From: Nitrosopumilaceae archaeon | GTDB taxonomy: Archaea; Thermoproteota; Nitrososphaeria; Nitrososphaerales; Nitrosopumilaceae | Direction: 5' to 3' | Assembly (NCBI GenBank): GCA_965207375.1 | Contig: OZ242274.1 | Span: 832,001-896,000, forward strand | DNA: 64,000 nt | Shown: positions 41,490-47,868 of the stretch, one piece after another | Layout of the letters: each line of letters starts with the position of its first letter | Position numbering within the stretch: position 1 is the first letter of the stretch | Notes under the pieces: model-generated | What the model saw: only the letters and a program-made list of their open reading frames with translations | Told to the model about the DNA's origin: nothing | The model's database searches: none | Program-made: the position numbers and the translations under genes

Positions 41490-41889
41490 ACCATTGTTTG
41501 ATGCAATAAATCAGGCCAAAAACGTCCTTCAGACATCTGTAATCTGAAAAACATATCAGGATTTCAAGGGTTGTCTTTTCAGGGTAACCTAAGCTCAGAA
41601 ACTGCACCAATATGCAAAAACATGCCACAACATGTTTGATTTTATGAATTTGCCCATATTCTGTCATGATTTTGCGTTTTGCCTGTGGCTGAAATCTAAT
41701 AGTATAGGAGACAACCAGAAAGCGTTCCATTCTTTTTTGCGATTACTATGGGCTGGATTCAACAAGGAATCTTACGGCTGATCCCGGAGAAATTTACATA
41801 GATGCTTTTGTTATATTTTGTGCTTTTGCTATATTTGAATTGAAATGATATATTTTATATCATGGTATCTGATATATGAAACTAACAGC

Positions 41890-43614
41890 ATGAATAACGC
41901 AAAATATTTCATACCACTCTTTGTATTGATTCTACTAATCCCATCAAGTTTAGTATATGCTGAATCAACAGGAGTGGATGATAAAACAAATAATGAAAAT
42001 CCACACACACTGGGGGACACAACAGGTTCAGTAGGTAATACATTACTTGATATAACAACTTTGGAATCATACAAGATACATCCAGAAATTACTGAAGAAA
42101 TGCTCGAAGTTCTCCCAGGAGAAAAAGCGCTAACTTTAGATTTTGGTGTAGCATATGACGAACTCAATCTGATAGGTTTTGGAATTGAAGAACACATAAG
42201 AGAAGAGTATGTTGAATATCTTGAAGATTTACCAATCACAATATTTGGCAAACATAATAATGCGATACGTGTAGGCATTGATCCTGAGAAACATGATAAT
42301 TTAGATGAGATTAGAGACAAATTTGATATCATGTATCCTAATGTTGAGATAATTGTAGTTCCTGCATTTGTTGAATATGTGGATAACTCTACAAATTATA
42401 ACGACAAGTTTACAAAAACATCTAAAGTAAACAAGGCAATACCTAATGGTAGGGGATCAATTACAGATACCATCAATATTGCACAACCCGCTACATTAAA
42501 CTCCATGAGTGTAAGCATTACAGTTGATCATGAAGACCATGATGAAATGTATATGAAATTAACATCGCCACAAGGAAAAGTAATAACCGTTTTTAGTAGA
42601 GAACGAGGACATGATGATGGGCTACAGACTTTTACATATTCATCTTCTACAAATTCTGGTTTAGCTAGATTAGCTGGCACCGACATATTTGGAACGTGGA
42701 CTTTGAATATTAGAGACGCTTATACTGGAAATGATATAGGTACCTTGAAAACTTGGACATTAAATTTTGATGCAACACCGGTCAAAACTACAGATGGTAC
42801 AAATACAAATGGTACTGAAAATAACGAGGAAAACCTGATTGAACAATTGCTCAACATAATTTTTGGCGATACCAAATGCAATACATTATCTGATGATTGC
42901 GTACCAAAAGTTGCAGGTAGTTACATTTCATATATTGGCCGTCAAGGTGCTGAAAGTCACAGTTCAATTGGACTTGGAGGTGTAAACACAACTGATGGAA
43001 ATTATGGCTTCCTGATTGCAGGGCATGCACCTGGACATGGGGATCTTGGCAAGATTATCGCCCATGAATTAGTTGATACCAATAGCATTGTGAGTTATAC
43101 AGATGCATTAGGAATAGTATCTATCAATAACAATGCAACTAGATCAGGGTACCTTGCAGCAGACGTTGCATTTGTTGAATATCCACAACAATGTATTACA
43201 ACAGAAGATACGTTATGTTATGGACCTGATAATTATACACCTACTGTAAAACCACTTGAGATTTTCAAATCAAATGGTAAAACATACGATGTTACAGGAA
43301 CTGACAATATGTCTCGTGGTGAATCTGTTGCTACTATAGGGTTTGCTTCAAACAAATTGCTTAAAGGAACTGTATATGATTCATTTGAGCGTATTCCATT
43401 ACCTGATGGATATTACTCATACATGGCATTAACTACTACTCGTACACAAAGTGGTGATAGTGGCGGTCCTGTGTTTACTATACCCAACAGTGATGATGAA
43501 GTAGAGTTTATGGGTATCAATTCAGTTTCTATAACAATTGGTGGTGAAACATATTCGGGGGTTGTTCCTTGGTATAGAATACAAGCAGATCTAGGTTTAC
43601 AACCTATTTCCTAA
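41890..43614 (+). CDS. Secreted trypsin-like (S1) serine protease with an inserted proprotein-convertase P-domain
   Basis: Signal peptide. P-domain ITVDH...MKLTSPQG...GTWTLNIRD...GTLKTWTLNF. Triad AGH / ADVAFV / GDSGGP. Confidence 0.8.
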   Translation: MNNAKYFIPLFVLILLIPSSLVYAESTGVDDKTNNENPHTLGDTTGSVGNTLLDITTLESYKIHPEITEEMLEVLPGEKALTLDFGVAYDELNLIGFGIEEHIREEYVEYLEDLPITIFGKHNNAIRVGIDPEKHDNLDEIRDKFDIMYPNVEIIVVPAFVEYVDNSTNYNDKFTKTSKVNKAIPNGRGSITDTINIAQPATLNSMSVSITVDHEDHDEMYMKLTSPQGKVITVFSRERGHDDGLQTFTYSSSTNSGLARLAGTDIFGTWTLNIRDAYTGNDIGTLKTWTLNFDATPVKTTDGTNTNGTENNEENLIEQLLNIIFGDTKCNTLSDDCVPKVAGSYISYIGRQGAESHSSIGLGGVNTTDGNYGFLIAGHAPGHGDLGKIIAHELVDTNSIVSYTDALGIVSINNNATRSGYLAADVAFVEYPQQCITTEDTLCYGPDNYTPTVKPLEIFKSNGKTYDVTGTDNMSRGESVATIGFASNKLLKGTVYDSFERIPLPDGYYSYMALTTTRTQSGDSGGPVFTIPNSDDEVEFMGINSVSITIGGETYSGVVPWYRIQADLGLQPIS

Positions 43615-43831
43615 TTTTTTATTATTATAATAAAATAAGTATGTGTTCCCGTACTAGGGTGAATTTGTGCCTAAATCATTCCATTATGTCTGAAACATCA
43701 GGCATCTATGTTAACCACCCCGGCGCGTACCTTGATGTATCCCTATTGCGTTTCCGTTCCGTGCCTAATTATTTAGTATATCATTTATAGCTAACGCTAG
43801 CAAGCTTAATACCGGATTTGACATGTACAAA

Positions 43832-44923
43832 TCATTTCTGACGTGCCTTTTCCAATTTAGCAAGCTTGCGCTGATACAATCTTGTATTGTGTGACGAATA
43901 TGGTGTCTTTGTGTTCAGAATATGCCATGATATTGTTATCATCTTGTTTGCAACTGCAACAACTGCAAGTGCATGCTTGTCTGCATGTCGCCTTTTTGCA
44001 GATTCGTATATTGATTTCATCCTAGGGTCATGCATTACTGCTACATTTGCTGCCTCGCACATGGCCCAATTCACTATACTGTTGGTGTCTAGTTTCTTCA
44101 TCCTTCCAAGATATTTTTGATCTCCTGACTGGTGTATGGTAGGACACAGACCTGCCCATGCAACAAGTTTCTTTGGATTATCAAATCTTGAAATGTCTGC
44201 AATTTCGACTGCCAGTAGTAATGAAGTATATGTTCCCATCCCTGTCATGCTTGTCAATAGTTTGGCATACTCGTTGTTTGCTGCCTCTTGTTCTATGTAA
44301 TCATTCATTTTGGTCAATTCTTCGGTCAGATGTCTGATCTGTCGGACATATTGCTACAGAATTATTTCATCATGTATTTCATCAAGAGATACAGACTCTA
44401 GATACTGCATTGTCTTTACTGCATATACTTGTACTGTATCAATTGAGACATCATGTCTGTCTAAAAGACTGCGTACTCTGTTTATCACTCGTGTCCTATC
44501 ATGTACTATCTTGATATGCTGTCGTATCATTGCACGTATTCCTCGTATGTCTGGTTTTGGTACATAACACTCTGGAATCATATCCATTCGTAATACCTGT
44601 GCTATCTTTTGTGCATCCACCTTGTCTGTCTTTTTGCCAGTCTTGGCAATTATGGCCATCTTGTACGTATTTGCAAGCTTGATTGGTATACCTGCTGCCT
44701 CAAATTTAGCATAGGTGATATTCCACATGTTGCCTGTAGTTTCACATGCAGCACTGCATGTTTTTTTGTTTCCTGTGTATTTTCGTGCCATGGTTCCTGC
44801 AAACTTTTTAGCATCTGCTACCGTGTTCATATACTGACAGGTCTCAAGTACTCGTCCTGTACCGTTTATGACGCATACGTCACACTTTTTCTTTCCAATG
44901 TCTATTCCAATGTATGTTTTCAT
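43832..44923 (-). pseudogene. IS110 DEDD recombinase with a single in-frame TAG (44356-44354)
   Basis: GIDIGK, CETTG, KTDKVDA, then CTG TAG CAA in frame, then AWAGLCP..HQSG and VAVANKM. 363 aa if read through. SD ggaggtga upstream. Confidence 0.9.
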
Positions 44924-44944: not shown

Positions 44945-45130
44945 GGATGTTTTGACGGATCGGAAGCTGCACACATCTATCAGGGCGCGTAGCCCAATTA
45001 CACAGCAGCTCGGATTGCCCCATTCACGACCAAGGGCGCGTAGCCCATACCTAATCAGGGGTCGATTCATCACTAGTACAGCGCAGGGGTGGTTATCATG
45101 TGTTCACGACGTGAACTCATACCTCAAATG
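44945..45130 (-). ncRNA. Putative bridge RNA of the IS110 element
   Basis: Two stem / internal loop / hairpin units (45018-45061 and 44965-45010), each capped by UGGGCUACGCGCCCU. Located upstream of the recombinase. RNA ends are approximate. Confidence 0.7.
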
Positions 45131-46340
45131 TGGTAAGATGGTCTTCACGGTGTAAAGACTGAATAAATATCACACCTAAATTGGGTGCAAAACTCATGAT
45201 TTTGGTATTTTTACGCTTAACTTGAATTGATACATTCCGTCAAGGTAGGCAGAAAACAAATTTGACTTTAACAGAGATGTACTAGTCATGCCTTTTGCTT
45301 TTGTAGGTGGTGCAACAACAATGGAATAAATGATGCAATGAAATTACATGTACGCAAAATCTTCTCATCAAAACGTGATTCCAGAAAACATTGCCAATCG
45401 TAACATTCCCACTTTCTAAAGTTCCTTATATAGTCAGGCAGTAAAGCATAAGGATCACCACTATCAGCATAAAATATGCTGCCAGGATTTGATCTTGAGG
45501 GAATAGATTGGAAGAATCCCGATGTCAACAGGCTTTTCGAGGTTCTTACTGAAAAATTTGATCAAATGGATAAACAAATTAAAGATCTACAAAAAGACAA
45601 TCATCTAAAAGATGTAAAAAGTGAACAAGTGATTGCAGAAAATAAACAGCTAAAAGAAGAAATGGTTCAACTAAAAAAACTCATAGCAAAACTGCAAAAG
45701 AAAAAAACAAGATCCAGTCATGTCAGTAGCTATAACACCAGAGAGTACAAGGGATACCCAAAGATCAAAAAACAAAAGACACAGCCAAAATATACACAGC
45801 AAGAATCTGAGACTAACAATCTAACCATAGATCACAAGTTTTGTCCACAATGTGGTAATGCTCTTGCAGATTCATCAAGCAAATACACCAGAAACGGTGA
45901 ATCAATAATAGACGGCAAATGGTCTAACGTCAATATGACCATTGTAGGCAGATACTGCAAAAAATGTGCACAAATGCAATATGCAAAACCTGTTGACTTT
46001 TTGTCCAATGAAAAATTTAGCATCACTATAATGGCAAGAATTTCTACAATGAGACACCTGACTATATCGTATGGCAAAATACAGAAACTCTTGCAGATGT
46101 TTTACGGCAAAAATATGGCAATCTCTACACTAGAAAGACTTGATGCGCAAGCCTCAAAATGCCTAGAACCGCTCTACTATTCGCTTCTTGATGAGATTAC
46201 CAAGGCAAAAATCGTAGGAGGTGATGAAACAGGATGGTATCTAAACGGCAAACTATGCTGGGCATGGGTGTTTCATTCGATATACACGGTAGTATATCAC
46301 ATCTCACAATCTAGAAGCAAAATGGTATCTGAGACGTTTC

Positions 46341-47868
46341 GTAAGTGTTAACGTGGTTTTTACGTCTCTAGAGGTATTTTGTCATCTCTTCTAGATAATT
46401 TAATCCAGCATTTCTCCAAGTCATCACACATGAAAACAAATTGCCCAATGTCTCCATGCTTTTTTCGGATCTAATTCCACCACGTATTTTTCTGTGTACA
46501 ACAATCTCACGCAGTGCACGTTCTGCTGTATTGTTGGTAGGAGGTATGGTAGGATCCAGCACAAACCTGAACAGGTTTGGTAGGGCTCGTCCCAGCTTTC
46601 CCATGAATCTTTTGAGATTGTGCAATGGAGTGTATGTATCAATAATCCTCTTTACACGACGATACAGATTGCGCCGTATTTTTTTGCGCCGTTTATACGA
46701 GATACGTGCAGTTATGGTATCTTTTGCATCTTCATATATTTTCTTGAGAGCCTCTTGTGCACCCAGACATTTTTTACATCCACATTTTTGTGTCTCGTGG
46801 TGCATCTCACGCATGATGTGAGCCCAACATCTCTGGATATCATATACCATGTACGGTTTGTGTCCGTCACAGATGATTGTTCCCTTCCAGTCATCTCCTA
46901 GTATCTCTTCGAGTACGTCTCTTCCCCTGCTAGGCCGTACCACATACAGTGCAGTATTTGTACCTGGAATGTAAAATACCCACGCCCATACGTTTTTGCC
47001 GTTTAGATGTATTGATGTCTCATCTATGTGTAACAGGACTGCAGCCCTGATTGCCTTTAGGAGTTGTTTTGTGGGTGCCGTTAGGCACGCACCAACCATG
47101 GTTATTATGTTGTGTGCAGAAGCTGGAGATATTTTGATTCCCCTCAAGGTCAGTGCTTCTGCGTTTCTGCGATGAGGTAGTCTGTCGATATAATTTGCTA
47201 CTGCCTGTGTTACTATATTGTTGCCATAATTGCCTTTTGTAGGAAAATCAGTCTCTGGGATTATGTCTTTTTTGCCACAGTTTTTGCATGAGCACAAATC
47301 TACATGATGACGTGTTGTTTCAGGTTGTACCTGTGGCGGTACTTCTGTAATGTCACGTATCTGTGTTTTGATAATTTTAAGATCTTTTGAGCCACACTCT
47401 GGACATTTTGCTGGCGTGTGTTGTTTGAATTTTGTAGGTTTTGGCTTGCTTGTTGCACCTTTGTGTCCCTTTGGTGCTCCTCGCTCACCTGTTGTTTTCT
47501 TGTTTTTATCCTTGTTTTTATTATCAGTTTTCTTCTTTTCTGGCATCTTGCGTGATGGTGGAGTGTGTGCGTTATCATAAAATTGGAGTTTTTTATTAAG
47601 ATCAGTGGCAATAGTTTTCAAATTGTGTATGTTGTTTTCTAACTCCTTTACTAGATCTTTTAGTTTTTTTTCGTTGTCATCTTTTTTTTGGATCATGGCA
47701 TCTTTCAACTCCATCATCTGTTCGAGTTTTAGATTCTTAGTTCGTTCGGCTTTGTAGAGTTTTTTGAAATCTGTCAATGTATGGTTTGGCTATTTGACCT
47801 CATTTAGATCATGTTGCCAAAAATTTGATCGTAAATGGTCAAAATCTAGGCACGACGTAAACACTTAC
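46341..47868 (-). mobile_element. Intact IS66-family element, 1528 bp
   Basis: TIR gtaagtgttaacgtgg versus gtaagtgtttacgtcg (14/16). 8-bp TSD gacgtttc at 46333-46340 and 47869-47876. Confidence 0.93.
46368..47777 (-). CDS. IS66-family single-ORF transposase
   Basis: Coiled coil, TPPS, GAPKGHKG, CPECG, HIDETS, ICDG, QRCWAH and TNNTAERALR motifs. Confidence 0.93.
   Translation of the reverse strand: MTDFKKLYKAERTKNLKLEQMMELKDAMIQKKDDNEKKLKDLVKELENNIHNLKTIATDLNKKLQFYDNAHTPPSRKMPEKKKTDNKNKDKNKKTTGERGAPKGHKGATSKPKPTKFKQHTPAKCPECGSKDLKIIKTQIRDITEVPPQVQPETTRHHVDLCSCKNCGKKDIIPETDFPTKGNYGNNIVTQAVANYIDRLPHRRNAEALTLRGIKISPASAHNIITMVGACLTAPTKQLLKAIRAAVLLHIDETSIHLNGKNVWAWVFYIPGTNTALYVVRPSRGRDVLEEILGDDWKGTIICDGHKPYMVYDIQRCWAHIMREMHHETQKCGCKKCLGAQEALKKIYEDAKDTITARISYKRRKKIRRNLYRRVKRIIDTYTPLHNLKRFMGKLGRALPNLFRFVLDPTIPPTNNTAERALREIVVHRKIRGGIRSEKSMETLGNLFSCVMTWRNAGLNYLEEMTKYL

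What the first reader, a model, noticed from the sequence alone, without database searches (positions are those of the whole stretch)
44960..45070. Decodable two-loop bridge RNA in a thaumarchaeal IS110, with both loops capped by an identical hairpin
Seen (RNA sense, minus strand): CCCC-UGAUUAGGUAU-GGGC UACGC GCCC-UUGGUCGUGAAU-GGGG, then AGCUGC-UGUGUAAUU-GGGC UACGC GCCC-UGAUAGAUGUGU-GCAGCU. The 15-mer is exactly duplicated (44982-44996 and 45033-45047). Established (IS621): the 5' loop guides the target and the 3' loop the donor, left guides equal the top strand, and right guides are its reverse complement. Applying that by hand, both loops give the same core: target GATTAGG-YA-CGACC and donor TGCTGTG-YA-CATCT. 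The candidate left junction reads TGACTAG-TA-CATCT (45288-45275, right donor 5/5). The candidate right junction begins TGATTTG-TA next to the stop codon (left donor 5/7). Caveats: the flanking target halves fit the guide poorly, and the outer stem of the first loop pairs better on the opposite strand. The exact duplication suggests the two loops arose by tandem duplication.
Basis: partly seen in the sequence, partly recalled or inferred. Interest (0 to 1): 0.85.

Follow-up and report, generated by a model that had tools for sequence, protein, structure and literature searches.

The report
Archaeal IS110/IS1111 bridge RNA, re-decoded

Summary

- **Element:** a 1,402-bp IS110/IS1111-superfamily element on the minus strand, window 45106-43705. 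The genome holds three more copies at about 98% identity.
- **Window copy:** its transposase carries a CAG>TAG nonsense codon.
- **True ends:** uninterrupted paralogous sites give TTACGTCG-TG|AACACATG... and ...AACATAGA-TG|CCTAGA.
- **Loop 1:** it pairs with both halves of the target.
- **Loop 2:** it pairs with both element ends.
- **Covariation:** all four guide segments track their DNA partners across relatives, and in copy D of this genome.
- **RNA structure:** five helices are supported (16 of 27 pairs compensatory).
- **Architecture:** guide order is reversed relative to IS621, which I checked on real E. coli W copies. Guide order, the 14-bp subterminal repeats and the 7/3-bp extensions are IS1111-type, yet the RNA lies upstream of the transposase gene.
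- **Targets:** terminal repeats of IS66-like and MITE-like elements.
- **Right end:** a conserved TATA-like box and a motif complementary to the RNA's 3' segment suggest, without proof, a transcript that spans the circle junction.
- **Expression:** could not be tested.

The parts
45105..45106 (-). Left copy of the core dinucleotide TG (CA on the + strand). With AACAC (45104-45100) it forms the 7-bp left terminal extension.
   Evidence: Filled site compared with uninterrupted paralogous sites; alignment of the four copies.
45107..45110 (-). Left target half GTCG, identical to the guide GUCG on the 3' side of loop 1.
   Evidence: In copy D the flank reads TTTG and the guide reads UUUG.
45086..45099 (-). 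Left subterminal inverted repeat ATGATAACCACCCC.
   Evidence: Reverse complement of the right-end repeat GGGGTGGTTAACAT with 1 mismatch. The repeat covaries in relatives.
45063..45072 (-). 5' strand of closing helix P0 (UGAUGAAUCG).
   Evidence: 7 of 9 pairs show changes on both sides; also predicted by RNAalifold.
45018..45061 (-). Loop 1, the target-binding loop. Stem CCCC/GGGG. 5' side UGAUUAGG-UA-U (45057-45047) pairs with the sense strand of core plus right target half. Cap GGGCUACGCGCCC (45046-45034). 3' side UU-GGUCG-UG-AA-U (45033-45022) equals left target half, core, and the first 2 nt of the left end (handshake-like).
44965..45010 (-). Loop 2, the donor-binding loop. Stem AGCUGC/GCAGCU. 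5' side UGUGUAAUU (45004-44996): UGUGU pairs with left-end positions 2-6 (ACACA). Cap identical to that of loop 1 (44995-44983). 3' side UG-AUAGA-UG-UGU (44982-44971) equals the right end ATAGA plus core TG.
44953..44964 (-). 3' strand of closing helix P0 (UCCGAUCCGUCA). Also complementary to the right-end motif at 43765-43751.
43832..44923 (-). IS110-family DEDD transposase gene. Broken in this copy by TAG at 44356-44354; the other copies have CAG.
   Evidence: Pfam PF01548 and PF02371; NF033542 at 223.8 bits; open-frame lengths; intact copy translated; catalytic D8, E61, D100, D103, S266 aligned to the IS621 residues.
43783..43798 (-). Conserved AGCGTTAGCTATAAAT in the right end. TATA-like box at 43789-43784, pointing towards the right end.
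   Evidence: Present in 11 of 13 aligned right ends. Promoter function is inferred; the archaeal promoter consensus is recalled, not tested.
43751..43765 (-). Right-end motif GGCACGGAACGGAAA, complementary to the segment just 3' of loop 2.
43703..43721 (-). Right end: subterminal repeat GGGGTGGTTAACAT (43721-43708), 3-bp extension AGA (43707-43705), right copy of core TG (43704-43703).
43695..43702 (-). Right target half CCTGATGT. It pairs with the 5' side of loop 1 (6 contiguous pairs, one of them G:U).
47837..47868 (-). Unoccupied cognate target in the window: terminal repeat of an IS66-family element, GTAAGTGTTTAC-GTCG-TG-CCTAGATT-TTGACC.
   Evidence: IS66 transposase at 46368-47777.

Best explanation
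Window 45072-44953 (minus strand) encodes the guide RNA of a 1,402-bp IS110/IS1111-superfamily insertion sequence (45106-43705).

**RNA fold.** A closing helix encloses two stem-internal-loop-hairpin modules.

**Loop 1 reads the insertion site.** All sequences below are in the sense of the RNA.
- The 5' side, AUUAGG-UA, pairs with the sense strand of core plus right half-site, TG-CCTRR.
- The 3' side, GUCG-UG, pairs with the opposite strand of left half-site plus core.
- It is followed by AA, which matches the first two bases of the element. This resembles the handshake guide of IS621.

**Loop 2 reads the element's own joined ends.**
- The 3' side, AUAGA-UG, equals the right end plus core.
- On the 5' side, UGUGU pairs with left-end positions 2-6.

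**Inferred mechanism.** By analogy with IS621 and ISEc11, a transposase tetramer holding this RNA recombines a circular copy, with junction ...CATAGA-TG-AACACATG..., with sites of the form GTCG-TG-CCTRR at the TG core, leaving no duplication. Such sites occur in the terminal repeats of IS66-like elements and MITE-like repeats.

**The window copy.** It has intact guides but a nonsense codon in the transposase gene. It could move only with transposase from the three intact copies.

**Shown:** the ends, the empty sites, covariation of guides with DNA, covariation in the RNA structure, and the catalytic residues.

**Inferred:** transcription, RNA-protein binding, the circular intermediate, and the strand-exchange chemistry.
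For: - **Copies and ends.** Three more copies at 98.2% identity share window 45107-45123 to 43700. Uninterrupted paralogs of the copy-C site read GTAAGTGTTTACGTC-G-TG-CCTAGATTTTGACC; 3 of the 10 listed are identical to this.
- **Reprogramming within the genome.** Copy D has UUUG-UG where copies A-C have GUCG-UG, and its flank reads TTTG-TG where theirs read GTCG-TG.
- **Left half-site.** In 19 non-redundant relatives, the 3' guide of loop 1 matches the upstream DNA over at least 6 contiguous bases including the core in 16 of 19. Only 3.8% of 342 non-cognate pairings do so.
- **Right half-site.** The 5' guide pairs with at least 6 of 8 bases of the right flank in 12 of 16, against 3.75% of 240 non-cognate pairings.
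- **Right end.** The 7-mer on the 3' side of loop 2 recurs downstream of the gene, next to the subterminal repeat, in 20 of 24 parsed loci. Variants ATGGATG, ACAGATG and ATGAGTG track it.
- **Left end.** The 5' side of loop 2 tracks left-end positions 2-6: UGUGU with ACACA, UGUAU with ATACA, UGCGU with ATGCA. This was read by eye from the table.
- **Structure.**, as given under the observation check.
- **Protein.**
- **Spread.** The covariance model matches 8 places in this genome and 19 of 151 sampled genomes of the class.
- **Orientation control.** Real IS621 copies from E. coli W show the opposite guide order. The IS1111 order as stated in PMC11187229 matches this element.
Against: - No RNA evidence could be obtained, so expression, RNA ends and strand are untested.
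- The single-sequence fold is no better than shuffles.
- The G:U test does not tell the strands apart. The strand assignment rests on guide architecture and gene context.
- The 5' guide of loop 2 covers only 5 bases and does not pair with the core.
- The handshake position of loop 2 fits at most 1 of 2 bases.
- **Misses, left half-site:** L051 (3; it fits only through G:U), L043 (4; atypical left end), L046 (4; the contig ends at the element).
- **Misses, right half-site:** L044 (0 of 8), L036 (2 of 8; the match is shifted by 1), L037 and L040 (5 of 8).
- Three perfect target sites in this genome are unoccupied.
- The flanks of copy B do not come from one site.
- The relatives are kin, so the counts overstate independence.
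Confidence: 0.88

Rival explanations
1. It is an IS621-type (IS110-group) bridge RNA. The 5' sides of the loops equal the left flank and the right end, and the junctions lie at 45288-45275 and beside the stop codon.
For: The RNA lies upstream of the transposase gene, as in IS621. The quoted strings exist at those places.
Against: Both proposed junctions lie off the ends of the block shared by the four copies. The empty sites define other ends. The guide order is the reverse of IS621, as measured on real IS621 copies. The element has 14-bp subterminal repeats and a TG core rather than CT.
Confidence: 0.02
2. The structure is only a 5' leader that controls transposase translation or stability, or an antisense RNA from the + strand. 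It is not a DNA guide.
For: It lies directly upstream of a GGAGGTGA motif and the start codon. The helices pair almost as well on the other strand (92.9% against 93.9%). No expression data exist.
Against: A leader would have no reason to carry four unpaired segments that track the element's flanks and ends across relatives. On the antisense RNA the core-pairing bases would sit at the 5' ends of the guides, unlike the solved IS621 loops (passages).
Confidence: 0.05
3. The window copy is an inert relic. The family uses a bridge RNA, but this locus no longer does anything.
For: A TAG at codon 190 truncates the transposase before the Ser266 domain. Two single-loop, truncated derivatives elsewhere show that the family decays.
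Against: The guide region of the window copy matches that of copy B base for base in the alignment (copy C differs by one cap-loop base), and both ends are intact. Three intact transposase genes are present in the genome. In the seekRNA paper, RNA and transposase supplied from separate plasmids moved a mini-IS (passages).
Confidence: 0.35

Closest known systems
IS621 bridge RNA (IS110 group; Durrant et al. 2024, PMC11208160; Hiraizumi et al. 2024, PMC11208158)
   Same: - Two internal loops in the left end, upstream of a DEDD/Ser recombinase gene.
- The first loop reads the target and the second reads the donor.
- The 5' guide is long, with the core at its 3' end, followed by one linker base and then a cap hairpin.
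- The 3' guide is short, followed by the core and two handshake-like bases.
- The catalytic residues align.
   Different: - Guide order relative to the element is reversed.
- The core is TG/CA, not CT.
- The subterminal repeats are 14 bp, not 2-3 bp.
- A closing helix encloses both loops.
- The two caps are identical.
- The host is an archaeon.
IS1111-family seekRNA elements (ISEc11, ISPa11, ISKpn4; Siddiquee et al. 2024, PMC11187229; passages read)
   Same: - Near-perfect subterminal inverted repeats.
- Terminal extensions of 7 bp on the left and 3 bp on the right.
- The segment complementary to the top strand precedes the segment matching it.
- No target duplication.
- Natural reprogramming is seen among relatives.
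   Different: There the non-coding region with the RNA lies downstream of the transposase gene. Here the loops lie upstream, and the 128-bp downstream region carries only a promoter-like box and a motif complementary to the RNA's 3' segment.
ISMtsp17; ISHvo10 and ISAcp5 (exceptions named in PMC11187229)
   Same: ISMtsp17 is an IS1111 relative with an upstream non-coding region. ISHvo10 and ISAcp5 have long non-coding regions on both sides.
   Different: Only one sentence about them was seen. Their RNAs, guide order and sequences were not examined here. The supplements that may describe them are closed.
IS4321 / IS5075 (IS1111 family; Partridge & Hall 2003; title seen in reference lists only)
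   Same: They insert into the terminal inverted repeats of other transposons.
   Different: They are bacterial and target Tn21-family repeats. I did not examine them.

Membership tests
IS110/IS1111 superfamily RNA-guided DEDD transposase | DEDD_Tnp_IS110 and Transposase_20 domains; NCBIfam NF033542 above its cut-off | tested here: met
   PF01548 at 94.8 bits and PF02371 at 76.2 bits. NF033542 at 223.8 bits against a cut-off of 140.
IS110/IS1111 superfamily RNA-guided DEDD transposase | Catalytic D-E-D-D and Ser | tested here: met
   D8, E61, D100, D103 and S266 align with IS621 D11, E60, D102, D105 and S241. All are invariant in the 10 aligned proteins. The residue list comes from passages.
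Bridge RNA, IS621 type (IS110 group) | Two internal loops whose unpaired sides covary with target and donor DNA | tested here: met
Bridge RNA, IS621 type (IS110 group) | [quoted passage not shown] | tested here: not met
   The order is reversed here. It was verified as stated on IS621 copies of E. coli W.
Bridge RNA, IS621 type (IS110 group) | CT core; subterminal repeats absent or only 2-3 bp | tested here: not met
   The core is TG. The repeats are 14 bp with 1 mismatch.
IS1111 family | Subterminal inverted repeats of about 11-13 bp, near-perfect; extensions of 7 bp on the left and 3 bp on the right | tested here: met
   GGGGTGGTTAACAT against ATGATAACCACCCC. Extensions TGAACAC and AGA. The criteria come from passages.
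IS1111 family | In the RNA, the complement of the top strand precedes the match to it | tested here: met
IS1111 family | The long non-coding region with the RNA lies downstream of the transposase gene (usual, with exceptions on record) | tested here: not met
   The loops lie 42-138 nt upstream of the start codon. The covariance model gives no match in the right end.
IS1111 family | Transposase related over its full length to that of IS1111 | not tested
   The plasmid search returned only generic 'IS110 family' labels. No labelled IS1111 reference sequence was at hand.
Bridge/seek RNA systems in general | The RNA is made, binds the transposase, and is needed for circle formation and insertion | not testable with these tools
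   No RNA run was listed. This needs bench work.

The most novel reading that the evidence does not exclude
The guide-RNA gene is split by the element's own recombination site.

- A conserved archaeal-type promoter box lies in the right end.
- A 5' motif follows it, about 24 nt downstream of the start of the box.
- The loops and the motif's pairing partner lie in the left end.

Only the excised circle, or a tandem copy, could then yield the full RNA. In that RNA the right-end motif replaces the weaker left-end strand of the closing helix, and the two subterminal repeats fold into a hairpin that presents the junction.

This would be an RNA-level sensor of the circular state. It would be the archaeal counterpart of the bacterial promoter that forms across the joined ends.
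Probability: 0.3. Interest if true: 0.7.

Novelty: new variant of a known kind. Interest (0 to 1): 0.5.

Why it matters
Bridge and seek RNAs have been known since 2024, so the principle is not new. Four things are of interest here.

- **A well-resolved archaeal clade.** In the samples searched, the transposase was found in 60 of 401 genomes of the class, and the RNA in 19 of 151, with up to 20 copies per genome.
- **A mixed architecture.** The ends and the guide order are IS1111-type, but the RNA sits upstream as in IS110. That bears on how the two groups diverged.
- **Compact, readable guides.** The conserved RNA core is about 120 nt (45072-44953). The guides can be read off directly and have been reprogrammed naturally within a single genome.
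- **It targets the ends of other mobile elements.**

The element could serve as a new ortholog for recombinase engineering. If the split-gene reading holds, it would also show how an archaeal element limits guide-RNA production to the excised circle.

Tried and rejected
- **Single-sequence folding:** z = 0.13, uninformative.
- **Rfam:** no match at E <= 1. Rfam 15 also fails to match IS621's own bridge RNA; only REP-derived sRNA models appear there. The blank therefore says nothing.
- **RNA runs:** no RNA holder listed.
- **DNA contigs laid on the locus:**
  - No empty allele and no circle junction was seen.
  - The loose end at 43704 is the paralogous repeat at C1:306404.
  - The joint that skips 51 nt is the single-loop paralog.
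  - One contig of run X5 carries variant guides: UUCUUUGUGAAU with flank ...AATTTG-TG, and UGUCUGGGUAU with flank CCTAGATG. They fit their own flanks. This is a single metagenome contig and I give it little weight.
- **G:U strand test:** 93.9% against 92.9%, inconclusive.
- **The search for related loci:** 8 loci only, used for naming.
- **Plasmid protein search:** 2,649 records, all under 60% identity, with generic labels. It gave no subfamily assignment.
- **Rejected readings:** See the first rival.
- **Dropped idea:** that the left-end strand of the closing helix pairs with a second right-end segment. It fitted this element but not L036 when checked by eye.
- **Supplements:** not opened. 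Supplementary tables and figures of PMC11208160 and PMC11187229 may already list archaeal or upstream-RNA IS1111-type elements, and this bears on the novelty rating.
- **Literature:** I made three searches and read passages only, via 'find'. In those I saw no description of a thaumarchaeal bridge RNA. That is not proof that none is in print.
- **Rows dropped before the counts:**
  - Of 30 loci (L035-L064), 6 gave no leader parse: L042, L049, L052, L058, L061, L062. Causes were contig ends or a failed pattern.
  - 4 more gave no 5'-guide parse: L054, L055, L063, L064. By eye, the 3' guide of loop 1 matches the left flank in all four, and the 5' guide matches the right flank in L054 and L055; the right flanks of L063 and L064 were not compared.
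  - L060 was dropped because its guides are identical to those of L059.
- **Unpublished genomes:** the tallies each include one (G282 and G131). No other claim rests on them.

Full report
**1. The observation**

This includes the exact 15-mer duplication at 45047-45033 and 44996-44982. The region lies upstream of a minus-strand gene (44923-43832) with DEDD_Tnp_IS110 and Transposase_20 domains. That gene is interrupted by an in-frame TAG at 44356-44354. On its own the RNA fold is not remarkable (z = 0.13). Rfam has no match, but Rfam also misses IS621's own bridge RNA, so that blank carries no weight.

**2. The true element**

The genome holds three more copies at about 98% identity. The homology covers window 45107-45123 down to 43700.

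The flanks of the copies are themselves repeats. For copy C, ten uninterrupted paralogs were listed. Three of them read exactly GTAAGTGTTTACGTC-G-TG-CCTAGATTTTGACC. One of these lies in the window at 47868-47837, at the end of an IS66-family element.

Comparing filled and empty sites gives, in the sense of the transposase:
- left junction: ...ACGTCG-TG|AACACATGATAACC...
- right junction: ...GGTTAACATAGA-TG|CCTAGA...

The TG is present once in the empty site. The element is 1,402 bp (45106-43705). It has 14-bp subterminal inverted repeats with one mismatch, GGGGTGGTTAACAT and ATGATAACCACCCC. The terminal extensions are 7 bp (TGAACAC) and 3 bp (AGA).

The other three copies have CAG where the window copy has TAG, and open frames of 366 codons. 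The catalytic residues align with those of IS621.

**3. Decoding the loops with the real ends**

All sequences here are in the sense of the RNA.
- Loop 1, 3' side: UU-GGUCG-UG-AA-U equals the left flank GTCG, then the core TG, then the first two bases of the element.
- Loop 1, 5' side: UGAUUAGG-UA-U pairs with the sense strand TG-CCTRR of the right flank. The core G pairs as G:U here; most relatives have CA at this position, which pairs perfectly.
- Loop 2, 3' side: AUAGA-UG equals the right end plus the core.
- Loop 2, 5' side: UGUGU pairs with ACACA at left-end positions 2-6.

**4. Covariation of the guides with DNA**

Within this genome, copy D carries UUUG-UG instead of GUCG-UG, and its flank reads TTTG-TG instead of GTCG-TG.

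I searched 401 genomes of the class. Sixty have a homolog at E <= 1e-30; this count includes this genome and one unpublished genome. Thirty loci (L035-L064) were examined.

In the 19 non-redundant parsed elements:
- The 3' guide of loop 1 matches the upstream DNA over at least 6 contiguous bases in 16 of 19. The cognate mean is 6.1 and the non-cognate mean is 3.67. Only 3.8% of 342 non-cognate pairings reach 6.
- The 5' guide pairs with at least 6 of 8 right-flank bases in 12 of 16. The cognate mean is 5.6 and the non-cognate mean is 3.07. Only 3.75% of 240 non-cognate pairings reach 6.
- The loop 2 7-mer is found beside the right subterminal repeat in 20 of 24 parsed loci, and variant 7-mers track variant ends.

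The misses are listed in the Against line. The relatives are kin, so these figures overstate independence. The guide sequences are nonetheless almost all different.

**5. RNA structure**

I aligned 14 leaders of 141 nt. A closing helix, two outer stems and two cap hairpins pair in 93.9% of cells. Sixteen of 27 pairs change on both sides. No shuffle out of 500 reaches this, and slid controls reach at most 49.6%. RNAalifold predicts the same five helices.

A covariance model built from this alignment finds 8 places in this genome. It finds matches in 19 of 151 sampled genomes of the class, with up to 20 matches in one genome (one unpublished genome is included).

The G:U test does not separate the strands. 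I assign the sense strand for three reasons:
- Only on that strand do the core-pairing bases sit at the 3' ends of the guides, as in the solved IS621 loops.
- The RNA lies just before the GGAGGTGA motif and the start codon.
- The promoter-like box in the right end points the same way.

**6. Comparison with what is known**

I fetched real IS621 copies from E. coli W. There the 5' sides of the loops, AUCGGGCCU and ACAGUAUC, have the sense of the left flank and the right end. The 3' side GUAG is complementary to the core plus the right flank.

The archaeal elements are the reverse of this. The seekRNA paper states the contrast in its text: in IS1111 elements the top-strand complement comes first, and in IS110 elements the order is reversed. 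It also gives 11-13-bp subterminal repeats and 7/3-bp extensions as marks of IS1111.

The present element meets those marks, but it carries its loops upstream of the gene. The paper reports that arrangement only as an exception (ISMtsp17). Archaeal IS110 recombinases are on record: 662 in a 2024 preprint. I saw no described thaumarchaeal bridge RNA in the passages read. The supplements were closed.

The taxon is supported by named relatives, Nitrosopumilus and Nitrososphaerales MAGs.

**7. The right end**

The 128-bp right non-coding region has a conserved GCGnTAG(C/T)T(A/T)TAAA box in 11 of 13 aligned relatives. About 24 nt downstream of the start of the box lies a motif complementary to the segment directly 3' of loop 2.

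That pairing shows compensatory changes, G:C to A:T or T:A to C:G, at five positions. The cognate mean is 9.2 of 11 pairs and the non-cognate mean is 7.8. It competes with the left-end strand of the closing helix.

I also folded, in silico, a transcript that runs across the joined ends. The 3' segment pairs with the right-end motif in 10 of 11 elements. The subterminal repeats form a hairpin in 9 of 11.

This suggests, but does not show, that the complete RNA is made only from the circle.

**8. The identical caps**

In 10 of 15 elements with two short caps, the two cap stems are the same within the element but differ between elements (GGGC, GUGC, GCAC, CGGC). The caps therefore evolve in concert, or are selected to match. 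An old duplication alone does not explain this.

Two loci in this genome lack exactly the 51 nt between the two 15-mers. They share other substitutions and sit at different sites.

**9. Verdict**

This is a genuine guide RNA of a known kind, in a clade and an arrangement that I did not find described. The junctions, the orientation, the donor register and the duplication argument were not. Expression remains untested.

Noticed in passing
G000:C1:555713-556203 and C1:1740081-1740203: Two derivatives lack exactly the 51 nt between the two 15-mers. Each is left with one hybrid loop: the 5' side of loop 1 and the 3' side of loop 2, which together match the element's right junction. They share substitutions but sit at different sites, and both are truncated downstream.
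   Followed up: partly
window 43751-43798: A conserved TATA-like box in the right end. Downstream of it lies a motif complementary to the RNA segment after loop 2, with compensatory changes in relatives.
   Followed up: partly
loci L035-L059: The cap hairpins of the two loops are identical or nearly so within an element, but differ between elements. This is concerted evolution of the two caps.
   Followed up: partly
window 47837-47868, and G000:C1:1824036 and C1:1941292: Three perfect cognate target sites, in terminal repeats of IS66-like elements, are unoccupied.
   Followed up: partly
window 45398-45600; 45476-46351; 46368-47777: A repeat found at more than 10 places in the genome ends at 45398. 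A truncated IS66-family ORF (291 aa) sits beside a full IS66-family transposase gene (469 aa) on the opposite strand. The neighbourhood is a cluster of mobile elements.
   Followed up: no
window 43640-43702 and 45103-45123: The window copy sits inside a short MITE-like repeat. An uninterrupted paralog lies at C1:306365-306404 and has inverted ends GGTACTTGTT.../...AACAAGTACC.
   Followed up: partly
G000:C1:1245875 (copy B) against C1:1349282: The left and right flanks of copy B come from different repeats. On the left is an 18-bp IS66-like terminal repeat, and on the right a MITE-like repeat. This suggests a rearrangement between copies.
   Followed up: partly
G000:C1:1753591-1754226: A diverged relative of the element (RNA model 82 bits). 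Both of its cap hairpins are longer than and unlike those of the window element, and its transposase gene is split over two frames.
   Followed up: no
window 41845-43614: An ORF of 589 aa with a proprotein convertase P-domain lies next to the element.
   Followed up: no
L038 (G147:C1), left flank: A 16-nt tandem duplication (GCCTAATAGTCTGTTG twice) lies directly at the left junction of a relative.
   Followed up: no
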